A program made the position numbers and the translations under genes. The notes below the pieces were generated by a model. That model was not told the DNA's origin, searched no databases, and worked only from the letters and a program-made list of their open reading frames with translations. A stretch of 59,621 nucleotides of DNA from a phage. This document shows, piece after piece, positions 43,787 through 57,976 of the stretch (position 1 is the stretch's first letter; every line of letters begins with the position of its first letter). Location of the stretch: the sequence record PZ049713.1; one strand, 5' to 3'.

Positions 43787-44480
43787 TTACGCGGCCTCCT
43801 TCAAAGCTGGCAGCGAGCTCAACGAATGCTGCGTAAGCCACTGCTGCCACTTGCCCGTTTCCAGAGGAGCGGTATCGGTCCACCCTTCCGGCCATCCCAT
43901 CAGCCACTCGTGGATTTCCGGGCTCGGACGCCCAAACACTCGCCGGAACTCGCGCGCGGCCGGCCACTTCTGCATTGAATCGGCGCAGTAGTTCGCCTTG
44001 GTCGTCGGCGTGTGCAAGTAGCCAGTAGCGCTGCCGAACGTGGTCAGCACCCAGGTCTGCCGCGGAGAGGGGAAGCATTCGGACTTGGTAACCCATGCGA
44101 ACGAGGTCGCGTCCGGCTTCTTCAATTGCTCGCTCGGCGACGTTCTCGGCGAAGACAAGCCTGGGAGCGACATCTGCCACGATCCGGCGCATCTCCGGCC
44201 AAAGGTTTTCAGCGTTGTTGCGTCCAGCAGCGGCAGTGCTGAAGGCCTGGCAGGGAAAGCCTCCAGATACGACGTCAACAATTCCGCGCCACGGTAGGCC
44301 GTCAAACGTTCGAACGTCATCCCAGATGGGGAACGGCGGGAGGACTCCATCGTTTTGTCGCTGGACCAGTACCCGCTGACAGTGCTCGTCGTGCTCGACG
44401 GCGCAGACAGGAGTGATGCCGAGCAGGTGGCTTGCGAGCAGGCCGCCACCAACGCCCGCGAATAGAGAAAGCTCATACAC
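43779..44480 (-). CDS. Short C5 DNA cytosine methyltransferase-like protein (233 aa)
   Basis: Motif I LFAGVGG, motif IV GGFPCQAFS, motif VI ENV, QRYW region. No recognisable TRD or motifs IX-X. Confidence 0.75.
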   Translation of the reverse strand: MYELSLFAGVGGGLLASHLLGITPVCAVEHDEHCQRVLVQRQNDGVLPPFPIWDDVRTFDGLPWRGIVDVVSGGFPCQAFSTAAAGRNNAENLWPEMRRIVADVAPRLVFAENVAERAIEEAGRDLVRMGYQVRMLPLSAADLGADHVRQRYWLLAHADDQGELLRRFNAEVAGRARVPASVWASEPGNPRVADGMAGRVDRYRSSGNGQVAAVAYAAFVELAASFEGGRVNG

Positions 44481-44736
44481 GGCGCGCCTCCCGCTTGTCG
44501 TGGTCGTCCTGGCATTCCTTGCAGCGCACGGCGTTCTTGACTGCGTGTAGCCGGCGCGGGTCGATGTCCTCGCCGCAATCCAGGCAGTCCGGCCGGCTTT
44601 CGCCAGTCATGCGCGACAGCACCATCGCCACGCCACCGATACGATCCGCTTCCTCTAGGCCAGAGGCGCGGTCTGTTACGTCGGGAGCCGTGCGGGCCTG
44701 CTCGAAGGCTTCGGCCATTTCCATGTAGTCGGTCAT
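44473..44736 (-). CDS. TraR/DksA-family zinc finger protein
   Basis: CLDCGEDIDPRRLHAVKNAVRCKEC four-Cys finger. Confidence 0.8.
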   Translation of the reverse strand: MTDYMEMAEAFEQARTAPDVTDRASGLEEADRIGGVAMVLSRMTGESRPDCLDCGEDIDPRRLHAVKNAVRCKECQDDHDKREARRV

Positions 44737-44891
44737 TTCCGTGCTCCTACGCCGCGCTGGGTGCTTCCGTCAGCACAGACGACGCGATGGTCATTGCCGC
44801 GTGATAGGCCTATGCCGGTCGCGGTGGTTTTTCGTATCTGGTAGCCCTGGCGCTGCAGGAGCTGGATGGCGTGCTGCTGGATAGGGGTCAT
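44733..44891 (-). CDS. Hypothetical small protein (52 aa)
   Basis: ATGA overlaps at both ends (with the dnaB stop and the traR-like start). Confidence 0.5.
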   Translation of the reverse strand: MTPIQQHAIQLLQRQGYQIRKTTATGIGLSRGNDHRVVCADGSTQRGVGARK

Positions 44892-46258
44892 GCGAAATCC
44901 CCCGATGCACTGCGACTGCGGAACCGGCCCATCTCAACTTCTTCCTGGCTGATCTCGCGCGCACCCGCGAAGCTCACGAACCGCGCGAACTGGCCTTGCT
45001 GCTGAAGGAGGCACGAGCCAACTTGCGCATGACGGCACTTTGTCATCAGGATTTCGGTGACGCCGTTCTGGCCTTCCTCGGTGTCCATGTCCCGGTGAAC
45101 CATGAGGATGCAGTGGGCGTCTGCCTCGATTTCGCCAGAGTCGCGCAGGTCAGCCGAGACGGGCTTTTTGCCTACGCGTTTGGTCGAATCACGGTTGAGC
45201 TGGGAAAGCAGGATTACGGGAATCCCAAGCTCTTTGGAGAGGTTCAACATCGCTTTGCTGATCTTGCCGACCTCTTCCGAGCGACTGCGCCCCTTCGCGT
45301 CAGCCGGGATCAGGCCGAGGTAATCGACCATCACGATGTCAAGGCCATGGTTGCGCTGAACCTGACGGGCTATCGACCGAATGCGCGCCGGGGTCATTCC
45401 AGGGCGGTCGCAGACGTAAAGTGGCTTGTCGACACACTTGGCTACTGCGGCGGTCATGCCCTGCCAATCGCCGTCCTGCATGTCTACGCCAGAGTCGAGC
45501 CGGCCGATATCAACCGACCCGAGAGATGCAATGACGCGCTGGCCAAGCTCTTCCTCTGGCATTTCCAGACTGAAGACCAGGCCAACACCCGCGCCGATCA
45601 TTGCGATGTTCTGAACGATCTGCAGGCCAAGCGTCGTCTTGCCGCTGCCAGGCAGGCCGGCAATCACGGTGACAGTACGGGGACGTAGGTGTCGGGTCAG
45701 CTTGTCGAGGTCAGGCAAGCCGGTGGAAAGCCCCACGACGCGCTTACCGTTGTGCTTCTCGTCGATCGTGTCGACGTTCTTGCGCACGATTTCGTCGATT
45801 CGCTTGTAGCCTGGCTCTCCGTCTTCCAAGTCGCGCAGGTCGGCCATCGCCTGCTGTGCGCTCGCGATAATGTCTGCAAGCGGCTTTTCCTCGGTCGCCA
45901 TCTCTGTCACGGCATTGGCGGCGTCCACCAGTCGGCGCAGAACGGCACGCTCGCGCACGGCTTTGGCATACGCTTCCCAGTTCGCCGTGCTGTAGGTGGC
46001 CTTTGCGATCTCTCCGGCATAGGCGATAGTCGAGTCGCCAGAAGGCAGCTCAGGGCGGAAGATCCCGACCGTCACAGGGTCGATAGGCTCGCCAGCGGCG
46101 TGGCAGTCGAGAATGGCCTGATACAGCGCGGCGTTTTCGATGTCGTAGAAGTCAGCCGCCACGACCTTGCCGCTGATCGCGTCAAACAGGCTCGGGTCGA
46201 GCATCATCGCGCCAAGCACGCCCCATTCGGCTTCGACGCTGTACAGTTCGCGGCTCAT
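44888..46258 (-). CDS. dnaB: Replicative DNA helicase DnaB
   Basis: 456 aa. Walker A GLPGSGKTT and typical DnaB N- and C-terminal domains. Confidence 0.95.
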   Translation of the reverse strand: MSRELYSVEAEWGVLGAMMLDPSLFDAISGKVVAADFYDIENAALYQAILDCHAAGEPIDPVTVGIFRPELPSGDSTIAYAGEIAKATYSTANWEAYAKAVRERAVLRRLVDAANAVTEMATEEKPLADIIASAQQAMADLRDLEDGEPGYKRIDEIVRKNVDTIDEKHNGKRVVGLSTGLPDLDKLTRHLRPRTVTVIAGLPGSGKTTLGLQIVQNIAMIGAGVGLVFSLEMPEEELGQRVIASLGSVDIGRLDSGVDMQDGDWQGMTAAVAKCVDKPLYVCDRPGMTPARIRSIARQVQRNHGLDIVMVDYLGLIPADAKGRSRSEEVGKISKAMLNLSKELGIPVILLSQLNRDSTKRVGKKPVSADLRDSGEIEADAHCILMVHRDMDTEEGQNGVTEILMTKCRHAQVGSCLLQQQGQFARFVSFAGAREISQEEVEMGRFRSRSASGDFA

Positions 46259-47046
46259 ACCTCACCCCCGCGCGCCGAGTCCCAATCAAAGATCACTGCT
46301 AGGCCTCCGTTTTCGCGCAGCCGGTCAAGCGCGCGATCGCCGATGTATGCAGCCAGCTCAGCGCTTGGCAGGTTCGAAGTCACGATGGTGGGAAACATGT
46401 TCCGGTAGCGGGCGTCGATGATCGTGTGCAGCGCCTGGCGCTCGAACTCGGTTCCGCCCTGGGCGCCGATCTCGTCGATCAGCAGCAGATCAACACTTGC
46501 CAGCTCTTCGAAAATCGCCTGCTCAGTCACCGCAGAGTCGCGCCCAAAACTGGACTTGATTGCGGCGATGATGTCGGCGGCCGGCACATAGAGCGCCGTC
46601 GCGCCGTACTGGCGAACCACGGCCTTGAGCACGGCGCAGCCAAGATGGGTCTTGCCGTTGCCGAAGTTCCCCAGCAGCAGCAAGCAGCGGCCTGCGTCGT
46701 AGTTCTCTTGGAACTGATCGACATAGGCTCGGCACTCATCGAGAGCGGCCTTCTGTCCAGCCAGCGGCGTGCGGTAGTTATCCAGCGAGCACTGACGGAA
46801 ACGTGCGGCGATGCCAGTTGCAAACAGAGCAGCGTTGACCGCCTCCCACTGCTTCGACTCGACGGCAGCGGCACGTGCAGCTTCGTCCGTCCCGTGGATG
46901 GCATCGAACCGGCAGCGCGGGCATCCGGTGACGCGGTGCTTGTCGTCAAATGATTCGATCAAGGTACGCTGGTACTCGCCGTGCAGTTCGCACTGCTCCG
47001 GGCGAGATTTGATCCGCGGCGAGGCGCCGAAGTTAGAAGTTCGCAC
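46255..47046 (-). CDS. DnaC/IstB-like helicase loader ATPase
   Basis: Walker A GNFGNGKTH and Walker B LLLIDEIG. Between the initiator and dnaB. Confidence 0.85.
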   Translation of the reverse strand: MRTSNFGASPRIKSRPEQCELHGEYQRTLIESFDDKHRVTGCPRCRFDAIHGTDEAARAAAVESKQWEAVNAALFATGIAARFRQCSLDNYRTPLAGQKAALDECRAYVDQFQENYDAGRCLLLLGNFGNGKTHLGCAVLKAVVRQYGATALYVPAADIIAAIKSSFGRDSAVTEQAIFEELASVDLLLIDEIGAQGGTEFERQALHTIIDARYRNMFPTIVTSNLPSAELAAYIGDRALDRLRENGGLAVIFDWDSARGGEV

Positions 47047-47842
47047 GACGAACCCCCAGGCGCTTGTTCTCTTCGGTCTTGGCGCGGATCTCTGCGGCGT
47101 TCACGGGCGGCAGGTTGGTGAATCGCGACATCTGGATCGGGCGGACATTGGCGGTCACCTTCTCAGGGAACAATCCGGTCCAGCCATTGGTGATCGAGAG
47201 CAGGATCACGGCGTCAGGGCTCGCGTGACCTTCCAGTTCCTTCGCCTGACGCTTGCAGCTCGTTTCGGTCAGCGGCTTGCGGATTTCCTTGCGGTGAGCA
47301 ACCCAGTCTGCCCAAACCTCAGCGGACACGTTGGCAGGCTTTGCAGCCAGAGCATCAAACTTCTTTCCCTTCGCCGGCGCGTCAGCGCCGTGCTCTTTCG
47401 GATCATTGATGGTTAAAGGATGGTTAAAGGACGGATTGGGTGCAGGAGCTGCACCCCGTTCTGTCGTGAGCTGCACCCCGTTCGTGCATGAGCTGCACCC
47501 CGTTGTGTCGTCAGATTCACCCCGTTCAGAACCGGGTGCATCTGCTGCACCCCGATCCATGCACAGGTCATATACCACTGGACGGCGGTCGTGGCGGTCA
47601 ATGTAGGCCGCAGCGATCGCCTGATTGCCCAGGGTGATTACCTCAGCCTCACGCAGAGACTCCAGCGCCGTGCGGATCGTGCGAACGGACAGGCCGGTGT
47701 CTTCGCTCAGGCTGCTTGCGGAAGGGAATGCGGCCTTACCATTCTTATCGGCGTAGTTCGCCAGGCACAGAAGAACATGGCGCGCCGTTGGCGAGGTAAC
47801 GATGCGCTGCTCAAGCGCCCAGGTCATGGCTTGAACACTCAT
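47033..47842 (-). CDS. Replication initiator (lambda O-like role) with N-terminal winged-HTH
   Basis: ATG at 47842 has a ggag RBS. ...LLCLANYADKNGKAFPSASSLSEDTGLSVRTIRTALESL... Iterons lie inside the gene. Confidence 0.75.
   Translation of the reverse strand: MSVQAMTWALEQRIVTSPTARHVLLCLANYADKNGKAAFPSASSLSEDTGLSVRTIRTALESLREAEVITLGNQAIAAAYIDRHDRRPVVYDLCMDRGAADAPGSERGESDDTTGCSSCTNGVQLTTERGAAPAPNPSFNHPLTINDPKEHGADAPAKGKKFDALAAKPANVSAEVWADWVAHRKEIRKPLTETSCKRQAKELEGHASPDAVILLSITNGWTGLFPEKVTANVRPIQMSRFTNLPPVNAAEIRAKTEENKRLGVRRANF
47446..47556. repeat. Origin iterons: 5 copies of (g)agctGCACCCCGtt
   Basis: gagctgcaccccgtt at 47446, 47468 and 47490 (22-bp spacing). Variants at 47512 and 47542. Adjacent tandem ggttaaagga at 47411 and 47422. 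Confidence 0.85.
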
Positions 47843-47843
47843 C

Positions 47844-48074
47844 TCAAATCTCCAGCTCGTCAGTGACGCGCTTGATGAACTCGTCGTAGCTCTCGGCCAT
47901 CTGAATACCCAGCTCTTCCAGGGCGCCGCGATAAGCCTTGGCCGATCCGTAGAGAGCCCAGCGATCACGCTCATGCAGATGCTTGAATGCCGAGTAGGAA
48001 GGCCACGGCCCTGCGATAACGGCGCTTGCGCGCTGCTGGTCGATGGTGTTGCGGTGGAAGTCGTGTTGGCGCAT
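47844..48074 (-). CDS. Hypothetical protein (76 aa)
   Basis: ORF between the CII-like and initiator genes. Its stop abuts the initiator start. Confidence 0.6.
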   Translation of the reverse strand: MRQHDFHRNTIDQQRASAVIAGPWPSYSAFKHLHERDRWALYGSAKAYRGALEELGIQMAESYDEFIKRVTDELEI

Positions 48075-48145: not shown

Positions 48146-48568
48146 TCAGGCGACCTTTACCGACTCGATCAGCACGTCGAGGCTCTTTTGCGCCTCTCCG
48201 ATCTCGCGCTTGATCAAGGCTTTCTCGGTTTGGGATACATGGCCGTCTTCCAGCGCTGCGGTGACGGCGCGGGTCACGTCGGCGACCTCTGCGTGCATGT
48301 GCAGGACGGCTGTGGAAAGCTGTTCCGACTTGGGGCGCTCCTTGGCTACCAGCTCGAAGCCGAACGAATCAGCCAGCGCTTCCAAGGGGCGCATATCGCC
48401 TGTGTGCAGCAGGATTCCGAACAGGTGCTCGATGGTCAGGTGATGGGCATCGTTGTCCGGGTTTGCGCGCTGAAGCAGGCTCACATGCGGAACGCCCATC
48501 TTTGCTGCCAGGGCCTTGGCTTCGTGGTCCAGCACTGCGGACTGGGTGGCTCTGAGGAAATCTTCCAT
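48146..48568 (-). CDS. CII-type regulatory protein (CP76 family-like)
   Basis: 140 aa, second gene of the rightward-equivalent operon after cro. HTH-like AAKMGVPHVSLLQRANP. Confidence 0.55.
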   Translation of the reverse strand: MEDFLRATQSAVLDHEAKALAAKMGVPHVSLLQRANPDNDAHHLTIEHLFGILLHTGDMRPLEALADSFGFELVAKERPKSEQLSTAVLHMHAEVADVTRAVTAALEDGHVSQTEKALIKREIGEAQKSLDVLIESVKVA

Positions 48569-48655
48569 CGCGTAAAACCTCTTTTCTCTTTCCGTGGAGC
48601 CCTACCGTTCGTCGGGCAATACTGGATTCATGGAAACCACTGACAGGGATGTCGC

Positions 48656-48838
48656 TTATGCAGCTACTGGAGCCTTGCGAACCGCCTTGAACTTGCCGCG
48701 GGACAGGACCTGAATTTGGTACTGGCGAGACTCGGGAACCGTCTCCCCCCACATGGTTACTGCGCTGGGGCGGATACCGAGGGCGTCCGCTAGCTTCTTC
48801 TTGCTGCCGAAGAAATCGGCCACGTCTTGAGTCTTCAT
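48656..48838 (-). CDS. cro: Cro-like repressor
   Basis: 60 aa HTH (KKKLADALGIRPSAVTMW), divergent from the cI-like gene across the operator region. Confidence 0.8.
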   Translation of the reverse strand: MKTQDVADFFGSKKKLADALGIRPSAVTMWGETVPESRQYQIQVLSRGKFKAVRKAPVAA

Positions 48839-48864
48839 TGCTCGACCTCGGGTTAGCTTGCCGC

Positions 48865-48941
48865 AATTTCAGCATGCTTAAATTACTAGGTCAAGCAATT
48901 ACTTAAGCGCAGTGCATGCTTAAATTCAGGATGCTTAACAT
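48865..48941. promoter_or_regulatory. OR: three operator sites with divergent PR/PRM
   Basis: aatttcagcatgcttaaatt (48865-48884), gcgcagtgcatgcttaaatt (48907-48926), aaattcaggatgcttaacat (48922-48941). Minus-strand PR is TTGACC(48894-48889)-17 nt-TGAAAT(48871-48866). Confidence 0.7.
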
Positions 48942-48948
48942 GTGTGTT

Positions 48949-49590
48949 ATGGAAAGACACGAACGCATCGCCCGCGCCATCCAGCTCAGCGGGCTAAAGA
49001 AGGGCGACATAGCCGCGAAGTGCAACGTGGCGAACTCGGCCGTCACTCAATGGCTTTCAGGCGAGAGCAAAAGCCTCAAGCCTGAAAACCTGTTTGCCTT
49101 AGCCAAGGCGACAGGCTTCAGCGCTATGTGGCTTGCTATCGAGGAAGGCCCAGAGCGCATCGAGAGCAACGTCGAGCTTGGGCCAGACATCACCAGCCCA
49201 TACCGCGAGATTCAGATCGTGGGCACTGCGCAGATGGGCACAGAGGGTTACTGGTACGCGCTGGATGAGGCGGACGGCATTGTTGAAGTGCCATCCCGCG
49301 ATCCTGGCGCCTACGCCCTGCGCCTTAAGGGGGACTCAATGGCCCCTGCGATCCGCTCTGGCTGGATTGCAGTCGTTGAGCCGAACCACCGTCTCGTTCC
49401 GCTCGAATACGTGATGATCCGACTGCATGACGGCGAGTGCATGCTCAAGGAGCTGCTTCAAGCCACCGATGAGGAAGTGGTTGTGCAGTCAGTCAACGAG
49501 CAGTTCGGGCGCCGAACCATTCCGACAGACCAGATTGAAACGATCCACTATGTCGGCCACATCGTGGCGCCTAGCAAGGTTAGGGTTTAA
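48949..49590 (+). CDS. cI: CI-like repressor (XRE HTH plus S24 LexA-like peptidase)
   Basis: HTH KKGDIAAKCNVANSAVTQWLSG. S24 motifs LKGDSMAP and MLKEL. The ATG at 48949 leaves almost no leader (longest ORF from 48916 starts inside the operators). Confidence 0.85.
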   Translation: MERHERIARAIQLSGLKKGDIAAKCNVANSAVTQWLSGESKSLKPENLFALAKATGFSAMWLAIEEGPERIESNVELGPDITSPYREIQIVGTAQMGTEGYWYALDEADGIVEVPSRDPGAYALRLKGDSMAPAIRSGWIAVVEPNHRLVPLEYVMIRLHDGECMLKELLQATDEEVVVQSVNEQFGRRTIPTDQIETIHYVGHIVAPSKVRV

Positions 49591-49619
49591 GGGTGCGTTG
49601 AGTTGAGCGAGCAGGGATA

Positions 49620-50330
49620 GTGCGGCACAGCGATTGGATTGTCTTCGTAGATGAAAGCGGAGATCACAGCCTAGAATCGATTGACGATGCGTACCCAGTG
49701 TTCGTGCTGACTTTCTGCGTGATCAGCAAAGACGAATACCTGCAGAAGCTAGTGCCCCGAGTGAAGCGCCTAAAGTTCGACCTGTTTGGGCACGATAAGG
49801 TCATCCTTCACGAATCTGAGATAAACCGGAAGAAGGGCGCATTCTCTCGCATGCCGAAAGAGGATCGGGATTCGCTGATGGTCACGCTTGGAGCAATCGT
49901 TGCCGAGACACACTTTCAAATCTTCGCGATCATCATCGACAAGATTCAACACAAGCGGCGCTATTCAAAGCCTGCCCACCCATACCATCTAGCCATGCAG
50001 CTCGGGCTTGAACGCATATATGGCTTCTTGCGTAGCAAAGGACAATGCGAGCGGGACACGCACTTCATCTTTGAGGCGCGAGGAAACAAGGAGGACCTTG
50101 ACCTTGAGCTGGCCTTTAGGCGAGTTTGCGACGGAGATAATTTCGCTGGAGCTACCTACCCGTTTCAAATCGTAATTGCGGACAAAAAGACTAACTGCGA
50201 AGGCTTGCAGGTCGCCGACCTTACAGCTCGTCCAATCGGACTATCTGTGCTGAGGCCGGAACAAGAAAATCGAGCGTATGAGATTCTGCGGAAGAAGATG
50301 AATCGGTACGGAAGAAAGATCTTCCCGTAG
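49620..50330 (+). CDS. DUF3800-family protein
   Basis: N-terminal WIVFVDESGDHS is typical of DUF3800. 30 nt downstream of cI on the same strand. Confidence 0.65.
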   Translation: MRHSDWIVFVDESGDHSLESIDDAYPVFVLTFCVISKDEYLQKLVPRVKRLKFDLFGHDKVILHESEINRKKGAFSRMPKEDRDSLMVTLGAIVAETHFQIFAIIIDKIQHKRRYSKPAHPYHLAMQLGLERIYGFLRSKGQCERDTHFIFEARGNKEDLDLELAFRRVCDGDNFAGATYPFQIVIADKKTNCEGLQVADLTARPIGLSVLRPEQENRAYEILRKKMNRYGRKIFP

Positions 50331-50497
50331 CCCAGAAAGCGAAAAGCCCCTGAGACAAGTCCCAAGGGCTTAGCGCCGGCCGCGTAGTCGCAACCCATTT
50401 ATCGAAATTCTATTGCGAAACCTACCCCGGCCTTCACCGGATCAATCTCGCAATCCAACTATAGGACAACCTTTATCCGAATGCAATCGGACACCAA

Positions 50498-50521
50498 GCC
50501 CCGCACCACGCGGGGCTTTTT
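50498..50521 (+). terminator. Strong intrinsic terminator
   Basis: gccccgc-accac-gcggggc followed by ttttt. Confidence 0.8.
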
Positions 50522-50653
50522 GTGTCTGCACCACCCTCCCCTACTTAGGTCTGAGCAACTTCTTTACATGTGGCAACCGGCCACCATGTTTCCTCTTGCC
50601 CGGTGAAACCCTCACAATTACTGTGTGGATATCCAGCATTAAGGAGGGCCACA

Positions 50654-50911
50654 ATGAATCGGATGCAACCTCACGCCATCACCCACCACTGCCAAGCATC
50701 GACCTATAGCCGCTTGGTGCGCCGGGTAAATCTAGCGCTGACGGCGCCAACAGCGCAGCGCGAACGCCAAGCCAATCTCAGGCCAGGCCCGGATGATCGC
50801 CCCGAAGACTGGGAGCGCCTTCTTGAGGAAATCGAACAGGCCGACAACGTGACCATGCGACGACGACCAGACGGAAGCGTCCATGTGATCTGGCGGTGCG
50901 CAAGCTGCTAG
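50654..50911 (+). CDS. Hypothetical protein (85 aa)
   Basis: ATG at 50654 is preceded by an aaggagg RBS. The upstream part of ORF 50570-50911 lacks an RBS. Confidence 0.6.
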   Translation: MNRMQPHAITHHCQASTYSRLVRRVNLALTAPTAQRERQANLRPGPDDRPEDWERLLEEIEQADNVTMRRRPDGSVHVIWRCASC

Positions 50912-50996
50912 CTGCATGCTTGCATTTCATGTTTGACATGCTTGCTTAGCGGTGGCCAAATGCAAGCACATAAAACTGTGCGAGGATTTTGCAAGC

Positions 50997-52010
50997 ATGA
51001 GCGAGCCAACCGGAAAGGCCAAAGGAGGAGTCGCGCGCGCCCATGCGCTAACGGCTGACGAGAGGAAGGATATCGCCAAGAAGGCTGCGGAGGCCCGTTG
51101 GGCTGCGCCAAAGGCGTTATACGTCGGAGAGCTGTCTATCGGGGAGCTAACCATCGATTGCGCAGTGCTGCCAGACGGCACGCGAGTGCTCTCGCAACGC
51201 GGAGTCGGTCGGGCGCTTGGCCGCAGCTATGGTGGCAAAGACTTCCGCGTCTCCGGCGACGAAGATGCCGGTGGGAAACTACCCTTTTTCATGAATGCAA
51301 ACACCCTAAAACCCTTTATTTCCAGTGAGTTAGCGGCGCTGGTCTCAAAGCCAATTCCGTATCGACACGAGCAAGGCGGCGGCGTGGCGCACGGTATAAG
51401 TGCAAGCGCCCTTCCCCAGATATGCGAAGTTTGGCTCAAGGCAAGGGAGGCTGGCGGGCTTACCAAGGTTCAGCTACCAATGGCGGCAAAGGCCGAAATA
51501 ATCATGCGCGGCCTGGCGCACATTGGCATCACCGCGCTTGTCGATGAAGCGACCGGTTACCAAGAGGTCCGCGACAAGCAGGCGCTCCAGGCGATCCTTG
51601 ACCAGTACCTGCGCAAGGAGCTGGCTGCATGGGCTAAGCGGTTTCCAGACGAATTCTATGCTCAGATGTTCAGGCTGAAAGGTTGGCAGCGAAAAGACCT
51701 AAGCTCGCCTTCACGGCGCCCAGGTGCTGCTGGGATGTACACCAATGATCTGGTCTACGAGCGGCTGGCTCCGAACATCCTTGCAGAGCTGGAGGCTCGC
51801 AACCCAAAGGACGCTAAAGGCAATAGGAGAGGCAAGCACCACCAGCTTCTAACCGATGACGTAGGGCACCCGGCGCTAGCGCAGCACTTGCACGCACTGA
51901 TCGCTCTAATGCGCGCCTCGCCTTCCTGGGACCAGTTCATGCTTATGGTCAACACAGCCTTCCCAAAAAAGAACGACACCCTGCTGCTGGACTTGCAGCC
52001 CTGCGACTAG
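50997..52010 (+). CDS. P63C-domain protein
   Basis: ...GELTIDCAVLPDGTRVLSQRGVGRALG... resembles the P63C domain N-terminus. Alternative GTG start at 50952. Confidence 0.55.
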   Translation: MSEPTGKAKGGVARAHALTADERKDIAKKAAEARWAAPKALYVGELSIGELTIDCAVLPDGTRVLSQRGVGRALGRSYGGKDFRVSGDEDAGGKLPFFMNANTLKPFISSELAALVSKPIPYRHEQGGGVAHGISASALPQICEVWLKAREAGGLTKVQLPMAAKAEIIMRGLAHIGITALVDEATGYQEVRDKQALQAILDQYLRKELAAWAKRFPDEFYAQMFRLKGWQRKDLSSPSRRPGAAGMYTNDLVYERLAPNILAELEARNPKDAKGNRRGKHHQLLTDDVGHPALAQHLHALIALMRASPSWDQFMLMVNTAFPKKNDTLLLDLQPCD

Positions 52011-52031
52011 TTGCGGGAACACTGAAACTAT

Positions 52032-52055
52032 AGCCCGCCACTGAGCGGGCTTTTT
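52032..52055 (+). terminator. Intrinsic terminator after the P63C gene
   Basis: agcccgc-cactga-gcgggct followed by tttt. Confidence 0.8.
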
Positions 52056-52065
52056 CTTGCCTGCG

Positions 52066-52119
52066 AATTTCAGCAAGCTTAAAAAAAGACTTGACCGATA
52101 AATTCAGCATGCTTAAATT
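52066..52119 (+). promoter_or_regulatory. OL/PL: early-left promoter with two operator sites
   Basis: aatttcagcaagcttaaaaa (52066-52085). TTGACC (52091-52096)-17 nt-TAAATT (52114-52119), with operator aaattcagcatgcttaaatt (52100-52119) across the spacer and -10. Confidence 0.7.
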
Positions 52120-52380
52120 ACACCCATCGACGCAGCACACCGCGCCGACAGGCCGAGAGGCCTCGGGTGATCCCGAAATGCTCTTTATACAACTCGACGT
52201 GACCCAACGACGTACCGGCCAACCCGGTGGTGAGAAAGCTAAACCGTCGTCCATGCCAGCTCTGGAACTGGCCGTGGCTCCACATGCAGCCACGCGAAGT
52301 TGCGAAATGTCACCCGGTGCGACGCCAGTTGCGGCAGCGGGAAAGAGACGACTCAGACAAGGAATCGCAGCGGAGACAGG

Positions 52381-52401
52381 TAATTCGGAATTTCCGAATT
52401 A
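52381..52401. promoter_or_regulatory. Perfect 21-bp palindrome TAATTCGGAA-T-TTCCGAATTA in the early-left leader
   Basis: 10-bp arms with a 1-nt centre, AT-rich, about 105 bp upstream of the first early-left gene. Confidence 0.6.
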
Positions 52402-52507
52402 TCAGCCAAGCCCACCGTGGCAAGTAACGGAGGCTAGCAAGACAGAAGATTCCTCGGTGCGCCTCAAGTTGGGCGCATCAGGGGGAATCCACTGGAAGGA
52501 GTGAGTA

Positions 52508-52720
52508 ATGAACATCAGCGTTTTGAATTTCGAAGCCTACAAGATCGACGTAAACCCAGCCAGCCGCACGCTAATGGGCGTCTCGGCATACGACGCGGAC
52601 GGCGCCACGGTGCTGGACAACTTCGACATCGAGCAGATCGTGAACCACTTCGGGGCCGGCGAATTGCTGGATGAGATCGGCGAGCAGGTCGCCCGCCGCC
52701 ACTTTGAGATTGAGGGATAG
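52508..52720 (+). CDS. Hypothetical early protein (70 aa)
   Basis: Strong RBS ggaaggag upstream of the ATG. Confidence 0.7.
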   Translation: MNISVLNFEAYKIDVNPASRTLMGVSAYDADGATVLDNFDIEQIVNHFGAGELLDEIGEQVARRHFEIEG

Positions 52721-54306: not shown

Positions 54307-54769
54307 CCCCCGCCTGAACCAGCCAGGCCAGACCCCCAGGTCTGCGATAACCGTACGGCGCGCGGTGCTGGTAGCGCCATGAACAAACCGCCGAGCGCAG
54401 CGGCCCTTCGGGATACCTGCGACGAGGATCAGCCGGACAGTGCCTCGATTGCAGAAAACCCCGGCAGCCATCCATGGGATTTTCCACAGCTTTGCCCGAG
54501 GGGATGGCCGAGTGACTGGCGTTACCAGTCGGCATCGGAGAGTGATCTGAATGCGCAGGCTGATGCGACGCCCATAGCGAGGCGACACGGCGGTAAAGCC
54601 ATTACGTTGTGCCGGGATCAGCTCCGGCCAGATCACTCCCCGATGCCACTGCATCACCCCTTCCCACGCCCATCCGGGCAACCGAGGTATCGACCATGAA
54701 GCACTACGGACCCATAGGGCGCCGCGAACAGCCGTGCCCGGATGACAGCGTTTCCGCGAGGATTCAACG

Positions 54770-57084: not shown

Positions 57085-57251
57085 ACCGCACCCTCCCCAT
57101 CCCCTACGACACCGGCCCGCACGACGACACCCCATCAGGCCACAGCTTCGCCGCTGCTTGGTGGACCCTTACCGGGTTCGGCGTCCTTTCCGCAACGCTC
57201 GCTTTCGGCCTCATTGGTGAGGCGGCGATCTTTCACTTCTTCGGAGGTTGA
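57081..57251 (+). CDS. Small TM protein (56 aa)
   Basis: ATGA overlap upstream. Hydrophobic WWTLTGFGVLSATLAFGLIGEAAIF. Confidence 0.45.
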   Translation: MNRTLPIPYDTGPHDDTPSGHSFAAAWWTLTGFGVLSATLAFGLIGEAAIFHFFGG

Positions 57252-57253
57252 GC

Positions 57254-57976
57254 ATGAACAACCAGAACATGAGCATCTGGAGCCAGGTTGAGAAGACCGC
57301 CCCAGAGGCCACCAAGTCCGCGAAGGTCAACGGCCAGCAGATCACCTCGATCAGCGGCCAGCACATGATCAAGCGCGCAACGGAGGTGTTCGGCCCGGTC
57401 GGTATCGGCTGGGGCTGGACGGTCGCCGAGGAGCGCTTCGACCAGGGCGGCGAGATCCGCAACGACAAGGGCGACCTGATCGGCCACGAGATCGGCCACA
57501 CGATCCGCGTGAAGCTCTGGTTCATGCAGGGCGACAAGCGCGGCGAGGTTGAGCAGTACGGGTGCACGCCGTTCACCTACAAGAGCAAGTGGGGCGTAAC
57601 CACGGACACCGAGGCGCCGAAGAAGTCGCTGACCGACGCCGTGAAGAAGGCGCTGGCGATGCTTGGCTTCAGCGCTGACATCTTCCTTGGTCTGTACGAC
57701 GACCGCGATTACGTGGCCGAGCGCGAGGCCGAGGCCCAGCTTGAGCAGGCCGAGAACAAGGAAGCCGAGGCAGCTCGTCAAGCCCAAGAGCGCCTCGATT
57801 GGCTCAAGGCTGCTCTCGACACTATGGCCGGCGCGCAGACCATGCACGAGCTTTCCAAGCTCCACGCCTCTTACGTCCGCAGCGCCACGCGCCGCAATGA
57901 GGATAAGTTCGTCAAGCGCCTTGCCCTGTCATTCGATGAGCGCAAAGCCCAGCTTGAGCAAAAGGAGGCAGCATGA
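57254..57976 (+). CDS. Rad52/Sak-like single-strand annealing protein
   Basis: ggagg RBS. ...KKSLTDAVKKALAMLGFSADIFLG... is typical of Rad52/22-family phage recombinases. Followed by Gp157 and an SSB-like gene. Confidence 0.6.
   Translation: MNNQNMSIWSQVEKTAPEATKSAKVNGQQITSISGQHMIKRATEVFGPVGIGWGWTVAEERFDQGGEIRNDKGDLIGHEIGHTIRVKLWFMQGDKRGEVEQYGCTPFTYKSKWGVTTDTEAPKKSLTDAVKKALAMLGFSADIFLGLYDDRDYVAEREAEAQLEQAENKEAEAARQAQERLDWLKAALDTMAGAQTMHELSKLHASYVRSATRRNEDKFVKRLALSFDERKAQLEQKEAA

What the first reader, a model, noticed from the sequence alone, without database searches (positions are those of the whole stretch)
48839..48948. Immunity switch built on a 20-bp AATTTnAGCATGCTnAAATT operator, with identical PR and PL architecture
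The near-palindrome aatttcagcatgcttaaatt occurs at 48865-48884 (OR), with two overlapping variants at 48907-48926 and 48922-48941. It recurs at 52066-52085 and 52100-52119 (OL). Both early promoters have the same layout. On the minus strand, TTGACC (48894-48889), 17 nt containing the operator, then TGAAAT (48871-48866), driving cro. On the plus strand, TTGACC (52091-52096), 17 nt containing the operator, then TAAATT (52114-52119), driving the early-left operon. The most plausible cI start (ATG 48949) lies 8 nt after the last operator, implying a leaderless or near-leaderless cI mRNA, as from lambda PRM. This gives a fully readable, testable bistable switch for an uncharacterised immunity group.
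Basis: partly seen in the sequence, partly recalled or inferred. Interest (0 to 1): 0.5.

Follow-up and report, generated by a model that had tools for sequence, protein, structure and literature searches.

The report
Lambda-like prophage switch, new operator
This is the on/off control region of a Pseudomonas-type prophage: a lambda-style repressor (CI) and anti-repressor (Cro) pair with a 20-bp palindromic binding site that has not been described before, an ordinary design but one that over 100 related prophages keep base for base.

Summary
The palindrome AATTTCAGCATGCTTAAATT (48865-84) and its variants at 48922-41, 52066-85 and 52100-19 are the only four strong matches in 59.6 kb. The fifth site (48907-26) is only a half-site here.

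The sites lie between divergent cro (P22-Cro family) and cI (HTH + S24 peptidase), and again 3.2 kb downstream at a TTGACC-17-TAAATT promoter that faces a recombination operon. That is the lambda OR/OL layout.

- 111 distinct relatives sharing the CI N-terminal domain conserve the operators, the PR -35 and the cI ATG. The spacers between them vary.
- Ten loci with the same CI C-terminal domain but a different N-terminal domain have no such sites.
- Cro-less copies keep the sites.

Together these point to CI as the binding protein.

Start of cI at ATG 48949 on a leaderless mRNA is well supported. A TAnnnT hexamer lies 6-7 nt upstream in 107/111 relatives, a Shine-Dalgarno core occurs in only 2/111, and most relatives have an in-frame stop upstream.

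Open points:
- which register CI uses in the O2 region, and whether CI activates PRM;
- the PR -10, which is weak;
- binding itself, which is untested.

Verdict: a new immunity specificity of a known kind. It is widespread, includes cultured P. aeruginosa phages, and I found no experimental work on it. Interest is modest.

The parts
48656..48838 (-). cro (60 aa), the first gene of the PR operon. A GAGG Shine-Dalgarno sequence lies 7 nt upstream of its ATG (plus-strand CCTC, 48846-49).
   Evidence: Pfam P22_Cro at 69 bits against a cut-off of 30.2. P22 Cro structure 1RZS, E=3e-9. The CCTC columns are conserved in relatives.
48865..48884 (.). O1 (OR1-like), AATTTCAGCATGCTTAAATT, the strongest operator. 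It covers the spacer and the -10 of PR.
   Evidence: 20/20 to the consensus and 38.5 bits. A site of >=8 bits sits at the same position in 107/111 relatives. Columns 48865-81 carry 1.1-2.0 bits.
48865..48894 (-). PR, the candidate promoter for cro. -35 TTGACC (48894-48889). -10 is either TGAAAT (48871-66; 17-nt spacer, with TGC immediately upstream) or GAAATT (48870-65; 18-nt spacer).
   Evidence: Read from the sequence. TTGAC/TTGAT is present in 103/111 relatives, and GTCAA carries 1.1-1.9 bits per column. The consensus scanner does not call it.
48900..48926 (.). O2 region, a composite. It has a perfect right half-site TGCTTAAATT (48917-26) and a left half-site-like TACTTAAGC (48900-08) placed 7 bp too far away.
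   Evidence: Half-site scores. Block 48912-29 is highly conserved. Among relatives the -42 register reaches >=8 bits in 45/111 and the -48/-49 register in 8/111.
48922..48941 (.). O3 (OR3-like), AAATTCAGGATGCTTAACAT. It overlaps the -10 of the cI promoter.
   Evidence: 16/20 and 22.0 bits. The outer arms are conserved while the 4-bp centre varies. The site scores >=0 bits at this position in 107/111 relatives.
48912..48949 (+). PRM, the candidate maintenance promoter. It has a weak -35 CTGCAT (48912-17), an 18-nt spacer, -10 TAACAT (48936-41), then 7 nt to A48949, which would be both the transcription start and the first base of the cI AUG (leaderless).
   Evidence: TAnnnT lies 7 nt (79/111) or 6 nt (28/111) before the ATG, and a Shine-Dalgarno core occurs in only 2/111. 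Conservation is high at 48937 and 48941.
48949..49590 (+). cI repressor (213 aa). N-terminal HTH domain with recognition helix NSAVTQW. C-terminal S24 autopeptidase with Ser130/Lys167 and a probable cleavage site at Met96-Gly97.
   Evidence: Pfam HTH_3 and Peptidase_S24. The start is set by relatives: an in-frame TAG in L001 and an in-frame TAA in most others. Automatic gene calls use ATG 48916, giving 224 aa.
49620..52010 (+). Variable cargo between cI and OL: a DUF3800 gene (49620-50330), a terminator-like hairpin (50496-50518) and a P63C-domain gene (50952-52010).
   Evidence: Pfam and terminator scan. Relatives carry different cargo, putting OL 1044-2431 nt after the cI start.
52032..52051 (+). 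Intrinsic terminator that closes the cI-side transcripts just before OL.
   Evidence: Terminator scan. In relatives the hairpin and T-run are kept while the loop and some stem bases change.
52066..52085 (.). OL2, AATTTCAGCAAGCTTAAAAA, the distal operator. It ends 5 nt upstream of the PL -35.
   Evidence: 17/20 and 23.4 bits. Present in all window-family relatives.
52091..52119 (+). PL: -35 TTGACC (52091-96), 17-nt spacer, -10 TAAATT (52114-19). OL1 (52100-19, AAATTCAGCATGCTTAAATT) covers the spacer and the -10.
   Evidence: The only promoter the scanner calls in 48500-52700. OL1 scores 36.0 bits. It is invariant in relatives. A boxA-like element follows 42-61 nt downstream of OL1 in 44 of 63 distinct leaders.

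Best explanation
This is the immunity (lysis/lysogeny) control region of a lambdoid prophage of the Pseudomonas/Stutzerimonas/Azomonas group.

Inferred mechanism:
- Dimers of the CI repressor recognise a dyad-symmetric operator through the N-terminal HTH domain. The core is TTMAGCATGCTKAA and the outer arms are AAT/ATT.
- In a lysogen, CI fills the two strongest sites. O1 (48865-84) covers the spacer and -10 of PR and shuts off cro-cII-replication. OL1 (52100-19) covers the spacer and -10 of PL and shuts off the recombination/early-left operon.
- OL2 (34 bp upstream of OL1) and the O2 region probably stabilise binding by cooperativity.
- cI is transcribed rightward from a weak promoter whose -10 (TAACAT) is the outer arm of O3. 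Transcription would start on the A of the AUG at 48949, giving a leaderless mRNA.
- Occupation of O3 by excess CI, or by Cro after induction, turns this promoter down.
- Cro (P22-Cro fold) is expected to use the same sites with a different preference.
- In all three promoters the candidate -10 hexamer coincides with operator positions 15-20 (KAAATT or TAACAT). One bound dimer is therefore enough to block RNA polymerase.

Shown here: site positions, their significance, their conservation, their linkage to the CI N-terminal domain, and the promoter and leaderless signatures.

Inferred only: actual binding, order of occupancy, cooperativity or looping, bistability, and SOS-induced cleavage.
For: 1. 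Gene content and order match lambda: cII <- cro <- PR/OR/PRM -> cI -> cargo -> terminator, then OL/PL -> an early-left operon. That operon contains a Rad52-family recombinase.

2. The four strong sites are the only ones in 59.6 kb.

3. In 137 distinct related loci (749 kb), matrix hits of >=8 bits fall at fixed OR positions (-84/-83, -48/-49, -42, -27/-26 from the cI ATG) or in OL clusters downstream of cI. Only 5 lie elsewhere.

4. The footprint across 111 distinct OR regions is sharp. O1, the PR -35, block 48912-29, the O3 arms and the ATG are conserved. Positions 48882-88, 48895-48911, the O3 centre and 48942-48 are not.

5. Specificity control. Ten loci whose CI shares the C-terminal domain but has a different N-terminal domain, including phage PS-1, have 0 hits. 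The same N-terminal domain fused to three different C-terminal domains keeps the operators.

6. In cro-less chromosomal copies such as L126 (host GST upstream and a small Cys/His-rich ORF that I read, untested, as a SEC-C motif), one site remains upstream of cI and a PL-type promoter with sites remains downstream. The sites therefore follow cI rather than cro.

7. OL site spacings fall into classes of 22/23, 34 and 45 bp. The last two differ by one helical turn, which fits phased cooperative binding.

8. Leaderless cI. TAnnnT lies 6-7 nt before the ATG in 107/111 relatives. A Shine-Dalgarno core occurs in 2/111, against at least 62/107 for cro. Most relatives have an in-frame stop upstream.

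9. A boxA-like GCTCTTTA lies 42-61 nt downstream of OL1 in 44 of 63 distinct leaders. This marks the region as a transcribed early leader.
Against: - There are no binding or transcript data for this phage or for any relative I could find.
- PR is weak by consensus and the scanner does not call it. TGAAAT has G at -11, and GAAATT matches only 3/6.
- The PRM -35 is very poor (CTGCAT).
- The O2 region covers that -35 and overlaps O3 by 5 bp. Lambda-style activation of PRM from O2 therefore cannot be assumed.
- The probable autocleavage site is Met-Gly rather than the usual Ala-Gly or Cys-Gly. I placed it by its position relative to Ser130, not by a tested alignment, so SOS inducibility is uncertain.
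- CI has no sequence-detectable solved homologue.
Confidence: 0.85

Rival explanations
1. The repeated 20-mer is mainly the Cro operator, or the site of another phage or host regulator, and CI acts elsewhere.
For: Cro is encoded next to the sites. In lambdoid phages Cro does bind the same operators, so sequence alone cannot separate the two proteins at OR.
Against: The sites co-occur with the CI N-terminal domain whatever the C-terminal domain. They are absent when that N-terminal domain is replaced. They persist beside cI in cro-less loci. The motif does not resemble a CTG-N10-CAG LexA box (direct reading of the sequence; the box consensus is from my own knowledge).
Confidence: 0.07
2. The repeats are simply shared promoter sequence: the same -10 region copied at three promoters. 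They are not protein-binding operators.
For: The outer arm of the motif (TAAATT, GAAATT, TAACAT) coincides with the candidate -10 of PL, PR and PRM. Part of the conservation could therefore be promoter constraint.
Against: - The motif is a 20-bp dyad. Its promoter-distal arm and its CATG centre are as conserved as the -10 arm.
- OL2 lies upstream of the -35, and the distal OL sites of relatives lie outside any promoter element.
- Promoter reuse would not track the repressor's HTH domain.
Confidence: 0.03
3. The switch differs from lambda in its middle operator. O2 and O3 overlap by 5 bp and cannot be filled together. O2 sits on the PRM -35, so CI only represses its own leaderless promoter and does not activate it. 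Stability of lysogeny then rests on O1/OL1 plus long-range OL-OR contacts.
For: The 15-bp centre-to-centre overlap of O2 and O3 is invariant across relatives, and block 48912-29 is the best-conserved part of OR. The O2 centre lies at -32.5 from the proposed start, against about -42 for lambda OR2 (the lambda figure is from my own knowledge).
Against: An alternative register (48900-19) would put a dimer at -39.5 and 22 bp from O3, which is lambda-like. That register is a full site in 8/111 relatives. Nothing here measures activation.
Confidence: 0.3

Closest known systems
Bacteriophage lambda immunity region (OR/OL, PR, PL, PRM, cI/cro)
   Same: - Divergent cI (HTH + S24-type C-terminal domain) and cro.
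- A multipartite dyad operator between them and a second cluster at the early-left promoter on the far side of cI plus accessory genes.
- The strongest sites over PR and PL, and a weak site over the cI promoter.
- A leaderless cI message.
- cII downstream of cro, and recombination genes in the PL operon.
   Different: - CI identity to lambda-type repressors is only about 31%.
- The operator is 20 bp (14-bp core) with an unrelated sequence.
- Site spacing is 34/35, 42 and 57 bp rather than 23-24 bp, and O2 and O3 overlap by 5 bp.
- OL has two sites in this window.
- Cro has the P22-Cro all-alpha type.
- cII is CP76 (186-like), not lambda CII.
Pseudomonas aeruginosa phage D3 immunity region (annotated operators in NC_002484)
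   Same: A Pseudomonas lambdoid switch with divergent cI and cro and annotated repressor-binding sites between them. The cI ATG lies close behind a -10-like GATAAT with no Shine-Dalgarno sequence, so it too looks leaderless.
   Different: D3 CI is only 26% identical. D3 has three 14-bp sites of a different sequence (ATGGGCACTCCCAT type) at a regular 24-bp spacing. It is therefore a different immunity specificity and geometry.
Cultured P. aeruginosa temperate phages vB_Pae_LC3I3, BUCT566, PAShipCat1, Flu_PA14_3/4 and Komp_PA14_gP
   Same: The CI N-terminal domain is 67% identical. I read only LC3I3, and it has the same design: O1 AATTTCAGCACACTGAAATA over a PR-like promoter, TAACAT 6 nt before the cI ATG, and OL sites flanking TTGACT.
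   Different: The C-terminal domain differs (242 aa in LC3I3; by my recollection it resembles P. aeruginosa PrtR, not tested). OL spacing is 45 bp. The published LC3I3 description does not mention operator, repressor, immunity or promoter.
Pseudomonas phage PS-1
   Same: Its CI is the closest cultured-phage relative over the full length (58% identity), and the C-terminal half of cI and downstream DNA are 83% identical at nucleotide level.
   Different: The N-terminal domain and the OR repeats differ (TTACAA/TTGTAA type), and the operator matrix gives no hits. It belongs to a different immunity group.
Stx phage 933W switch
   Same: Its CI is about 31% identical, in the same range as lambda-type repressors. 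From my own knowledge, not tested here, 933W also has a two-site OL.
   Different: Unrelated operator sequence. Nothing further was compared.

Membership tests
Lambdoid CI/Cro genetic switch | Divergently transcribed repressor (HTH + S24/LexA-like C-terminal domain) and small Cro-type repressor | tested here: met
   cI: HTH_3 at 29.4 bits and Peptidase_S24 at 54.1 bits. cro: P22_Cro at 69 bits. All exceed the Pfam cut-offs. The two genes are 110 bp apart on opposite strands.
Lambdoid CI/Cro genetic switch | Several dyad-symmetric operators in the cI-cro intergenic region that overlap divergent promoters | tested here: met
   O1 and O3 are significant full sites, and O2 is a conserved half or composite site. 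O1 overlaps the PR spacer and -10, and O3 overlaps the PRM -10. The promoters are consensus-level predictions only.
Lambdoid CI/Cro genetic switch | A second operator cluster (OL) at an early promoter on the far side of cI | tested here: met
   OL2 and OL1 flank and overlap TTGACC-17-TAAATT. OL clusters of two or three sites, each downstream of cI after cargo of variable length, were found in 73 of 137 relatives; flanking sequence was limited in the others.
Lambdoid CI/Cro genetic switch | The repressor binds these operators and confers immunity | not testable with these tools
   Indirect support only: the sites co-occur with the CI N-terminal domain and are absent when that domain differs.
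Lambdoid CI/Cro genetic switch | RecA-stimulated autocleavage (Ser/Lys dyad plus an Ala-Gly or Cys-Gly site) | tested here: inconclusive
   GDSM Ser130 and Lys167 are present at LexA-like spacing (37 residues; LexA figure from my own knowledge). The residue pair at the expected cleavage position is Met96-Gly97 (AQMG), which is not canonical. Most relatives carry a different C-terminal domain with VAAG.
Lambdoid CI/Cro genetic switch | Leaderless cI mRNA from the maintenance promoter | tested here: inconclusive
   The sequence signature is strong: TAnnnT lies 6-7 nt before the ATG in 107/111 relatives, a Shine-Dalgarno core occurs in 2/111, and an in-frame stop lies upstream in most. No transcript 5' end is available.
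P22 Cro family (PF14549) | Sequence match to the family profile and to the solved P22 Cro | tested here: met
   69 bits against a cut-off of 30.2. 1RZS at E=3e-9 over residues 3-53.
Immunity group of phage PS-1 or phage D3 | Same DNA-binding domain and same operator sequence | tested here: not met
   PS-1 has a different N-terminal domain and different OR repeats, and gives 0 matrix hits. D3 CI is 26% identical and its annotated operators are of a different sequence.

The most novel reading that the evidence does not exclude
The switch may follow a design rule not described for lambda. Under this rule the operator's outer arm is itself the -10 hexamer of all three promoters. The middle site would be a stretched operator that overlaps both O3 and the PRM -35, so that CI occupancy of O2 and O3 is mutually exclusive. 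Autoregulation of the leaderless cI would then be purely negative, or register-dependent. In addition, the DNA-binding domain together with OR/OL behaves as a portable cassette, found recombined onto at least three different S24 sensor domains.
Probability: 0.25. Interest if true: 0.5.

Novelty: new member of a known kind. Interest (0 to 1): 0.3.

Why it matters
- It gives a base-level, testable map of the lysis/lysogeny switch for a large and previously undescribed immunity group of Pseudomonas-type prophages. The group comprises over 160 loci in viral and metagenome collections, plus cultured P. aeruginosa phages that appear in phage-therapy screens.
- The operator matrix can predict which prophages should be homoimmune.
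- The cI start used by automatic annotation is probably 11 codons too long, and this analysis corrects it.
- The CI/operator pair is a candidate orthogonal repressor-operator part for Pseudomonas engineering.
- Conceptually it is another lambda-type switch, so the gain is in coverage and detail rather than in principle.

Tried and rejected
- **Literature.** Searches for the operator strings and for the related cultured phages found only unrelated primer matches and no operator work.
- **Solved structures.** A sequence search with CI returned nothing at E<=1e-3.
- **Exact-protein look-up.** The 213-aa CI is not on record. The 224-aa call from ATG 48916 is on record, which shows how gene callers annotate it.
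- **Upstream starts.** I considered the in-frame ATGs at 48916, 48931 and 48940 as cI starts and rejected them. L001 has an in-frame TAG, and most relatives have an in-frame TAA at the position of 48931.
- **Alternative O2 register.** Register 48900-19 fits the spacing classes but scores -15 bits here and is a full site in only 8/111 relatives. It remains unresolved rather than adopted.
- **Middle operator over the PR -35.** Most relatives have such a site at PL. I found none at PR by direct reading.
- **nutR-type boxA.** None is present downstream of PR on the minus strand.
- **PL leader fold.** Its folding energy is not better than that of shuffled sequences (z = -0.42).
- **Defence annotation.** PADLOC gave no hit for the DUF3800 or P63C cargo genes.
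- **Other RNA genes.** tRNA and Rfam scans found nothing in the switch itself.

Full report
**1. What is in the sequence**

The 110-bp gap between two divergent genes holds the motif. On the minus strand lies a 60-aa P22-Cro-family gene (48656-48838). On the plus strand lies a repressor gene with an HTH_3 domain and a Peptidase_S24 domain.

Beyond cro come a CP76-type cII (48146-48568) and replication genes (an HTH_36 initiator-like protein and an IstB/DnaC-like loader). Beyond cI come a DUF3800 gene, a P63C-domain gene and a strong terminator (52032-51). A promoter-like site facing rightward follows the terminator. Further downstream are small ORFs, a Rad52-family recombinase (57248-57976) and a Gp157-family gene. 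This is the lambda arrangement: PR operon <- OR -> cI - accessory genes - OL/PL -> early-left operon.

**2. Checking the observation**

Matches to the symmetric consensus AATTTMAGCATGCTKAAATT are:

| Site | Match |
|---|---|
| 48865-84 | 20/20 |
| 52100-19 | 19/20 |
| 52066-85 | 17/20 |
| 48922-41 | 16/20 |
| 48907-26 | 13/20 |

Seven windows in the 59.6 kb reach 13/20, and nothing else exceeds 14/20. Shuffles predict 0.01 sites at <=3 mismatches, against 3 found.

A weight matrix built only from the O1 sites of relatives recovers exactly four sites in the window: 38.5, 36.0, 23.4 and 22.0 bits. No other position reaches 5 bits.

The fifth site scores -5 bits as a 20-mer, but its right half (TGCTTAAATT) is a perfect half-site.

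**3. Related sequences**

A search with the whole CI found ten viral contigs with 86-100% identical CI. It also found an Azomonas macrocytogenes prophage at 72% identity.

All ten close relatives keep O1 at -84 and O3 at -27 from the cI ATG. All keep an OL pair, which lies 1044-2431 nt downstream of the cI start, so the cargo between cI and OL is variable. The Azomonas prophage has a variant operator, GATTTCAGCATACTGAAATT, at the same position, together with TTGACT-17-TGAAAT.

A search with only the first 74 residues of CI found more than 160 further loci at 66-95% identity. These gave 111 distinct OR regions of the same geometry.

**4. Phylogenetic footprint**

Column information across the 111 regions is high at these positions:
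- O1 (48865-81);
- the PR -35 (GTCAA, 48890-94);
- the block CTGCATGCTTAAATTCAG (48912-29);
- the O3 right arm CTTAAyAT (48934-41);
- the ATG.

It is low at 48882-88, 48895-48911, the 4-bp centre of O3 and the 7 nt before the ATG.

In 137 distinct loci (749 kb), matrix hits of >=8 bits fall at -84/-83, -48/-49, -42 and -27/-26, or in OL clusters. Only five lie anywhere else.

**5. Which protein binds**

Three lines of evidence point to the CI N-terminal domain.

First, ten loci have a CI that shares the C-terminal domain but carries another N-terminal domain. Cultured phage PS-1 is among them, with 83% nucleotide identity over the 3' half of cI. None has a single matrix hit, and all show other repeats in OR.

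Second, the same N-terminal domain, with its invariant NSAVTQW helix, is found on at least three unrelated S24 C-terminal domains. All of them keep the operators.

Third, chromosomal copies without cro still have a site upstream of cI and a PL-type promoter with sites downstream. In L126 the upstream genes are a host GST and a small Cys/His-rich ORF that I read, without testing, as a SEC-C motif.

**6. Promoters**

PL is TTGACC-17-TAAATT (52091-52119). It is the only promoter the consensus scanner calls in 48500-52700. OL1 covers its spacer and -10. In most relatives OL has three sites 22-23 bp apart, and the middle site contains the -35. The window's family has lost the middle site and is 11 bp shorter: 34 bp instead of 45 bp between the outer sites, which is one helical turn.

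A boxA-like GCTCTTTA lies 42-61 nt downstream of OL1 in 44 of 63 distinct leaders. In the window it reads TGCTCTTTA at 52179-87 and follows two small hairpins. This marks the region as an early transcribed leader.

PR is TTGACC (48894-89) followed by either TGAAAT (17-nt spacer, TGC just upstream) or GAAATT (18-nt spacer). The first has G where A is nearly universal. The second keeps A at -11 and T at -7 and corresponds to operator positions 15-20, as do TAAATT at PL and TAACAT at PRM. The -35 is conserved in 103/111 relatives, but the scanner does not call PR. 'Identical architecture' is therefore close but not exact. The operator begins 4 nt after the -35 at PR and 3 nt after it at PL.

**7. 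The cI start**

The window has four in-frame ATGs: 48916, 48931, 48940 and 48949. Automatic gene calls use 48916, giving 224 aa.

Relatives align from the ATG equivalent to 48949. The Azomonas prophage has TAG 12 nt upstream in frame. Most others have TAA where the window has ATG 48931.

A TAnnnT hexamer (TAATAT in 63 relatives, TAACAT here) lies 7 nt upstream in 79/111 and 6 nt upstream in 28/111. A Shine-Dalgarno core occurs in 2/111, against at least 62/107 for cro. This is the signature of a leaderless message and matches what is known for lambda PRM (my own knowledge). Phage D3 shows a similar arrangement.

**8. The O2 problem**

It is nevertheless a full site (>=8 bits) in 45/111 relatives and lies in the best-conserved block. 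In every relative it overlaps O3 by 5 bp. It also covers the only candidate PRM -35 (CTGCAT, 48912-17).

A second register (48900-19) uses the left half-site-like TACTTAAGC. It is a full site in only 8/111 relatives. Its spacings, 35 bp to O1 and 22 bp to O3, match the OL spacing classes.

Sequence alone cannot settle which register CI uses, whether O2 and O3 are mutually exclusive, or whether CI activates PRM.

**9. Comparison with known systems**

The layout and logic are lambda's. Membership in the lambdoid CI/Cro class is met for the features I could test.

The specificity is new:
- CI is about 31% identical to lambda and 933W-type repressors.
- CI is 26% identical to D3 CI, whose annotated 14-bp operators are unrelated in sequence.
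- PS-1 belongs to a different immunity group.

The nearest cultured phages are P. aeruginosa LC3I3, BUCT566, PAShipCat1 and the Flu/Komp_PA14 phages, with 67% identity in the DNA-binding domain. LC3I3, the one I read, shares the design. The published LC3I3 description does not mention operator, repressor, immunity or promoter. The operator strings occur in no paper of the searched library other than as unrelated primers.

**10. Verdict**

It is a well-resolved, widespread but experimentally untouched immunity group of an already well-known kind.

Points of some interest beyond the ordinary:
- the operator arm doubles as the -10 of all three promoters;
- the O2/O3 overlap is conserved;
- the one-turn deletion in OL;
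- the modular reuse of the DNA-binding domain with its operators.

None of these is established as functionally novel without experiments.

Noticed in passing
window 52151-52187: The PL leader carries two small hairpins, GGCCGAGAGGCC (GAGA loop; relatives have GGCAGAGATGCC, a compensatory C-G to A-T change) and TCGGGTGATCCCGA. TGCTCTTTA follows directly; from my own knowledge this matches the rrn-type boxA. A GCTCTTTA lies 42-61 nt after OL1 in 44 of 63 distinct relatives, usually preceded by a hairpin with a purine-rich loop. This looks like a nut-type or rrn-type antitermination signal. No counterpart was found downstream of PR.
   Followed up: partly
window 52251-52304: A 54-nt block (CCATGCCAGCTCTGGAACTGGCCGTGGCTCCACATGCAGCCACGCGAAGTTGCG) is invariant in all window-family relatives, while the flanks vary and carry indels that break any reading frame. 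Rfam has no family for it and its function is unknown.
   Followed up: partly
window 54390-54469 (+): Rfam match to Proteo-phage-1 RNA (RF03044): 70.2 bits against a gathering score of 42, inside the early-left operon.
   Followed up: no
window 48916-48948: Automatic gene calls in public assemblies start cI at ATG 48916 (224 aa). Comparative evidence puts the start at 48949 (213 aa), so the deposited protein is probably 11 residues too long.
   Followed up: yes
window 49228-49239 (CI residues 94-97, AQMG): At the position where LexA-type repressors have Ala-Gly, this CI has Met96-Gly97. Nine distinct relatives with this C-terminal domain share AQMG. Ser130 and Lys167 are present. Whether RecA-stimulated cleavage works at Met-Gly is unknown.
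   Followed up: partly
window 48949-49590 compared with L036/L043/L061 and L181: Domain shuffling. The same DNA-binding domain is joined to at least three unrelated S24 C-terminal domains: the PS-1 type (here), a type with a VAAG motif (the majority; it looks lambda-CI-like, not tested), and the longer type seen in LC3I3 (it looks like P. aeruginosa PrtR, from memory). The operators travel with the N-terminal domain.
   Followed up: partly
window 49620-52010: The cargo between cI and OL differs among otherwise near-identical phages. Here it is a DUF3800 gene plus a P63C-domain gene, with terminator-like hairpins in and after the interval. Relatives carry DUF3800 + DUF1654 or shorter inserts. 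Neither protein hits PADLOC. The position corresponds to lambda rexAB (my own knowledge).
   Followed up: partly
L126 2900-4260 (also L123, L130, L133, L168, L174): These are cro-less copies of the repressor. In L126, the only one I examined, host genes lie directly upstream, one operator lies at -72, a DUF1654 gene follows cI, and a PL-type promoter (ATGTTCAGCAAACTTGACGA + TATTTAAGTATGCTTAAATT) lies downstream. They may be cryptic prophage remnants or domesticated elements.
   Followed up: partly
window 52086-52099 compared with relatives: Most relatives have a three-site OL in which the middle site contains the -35 (22-23 bp steps, 45 bp overall). In the window's family the middle site is replaced by an A-run and the outer sites are 34 bp apart, exactly one helical turn less. 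One relative has 33 bp.
   Followed up: yes
L183 and L184 compared with window 44000-48000: An identical cro-OR-cI-DUF3800 module sits next to different replication modules in different contigs: DnaB + DnaC-like, as in the window, or primase + DEAD-box helicase, as in PS-1. This is mosaic exchange at the immunity-region borders.
   Followed up: no
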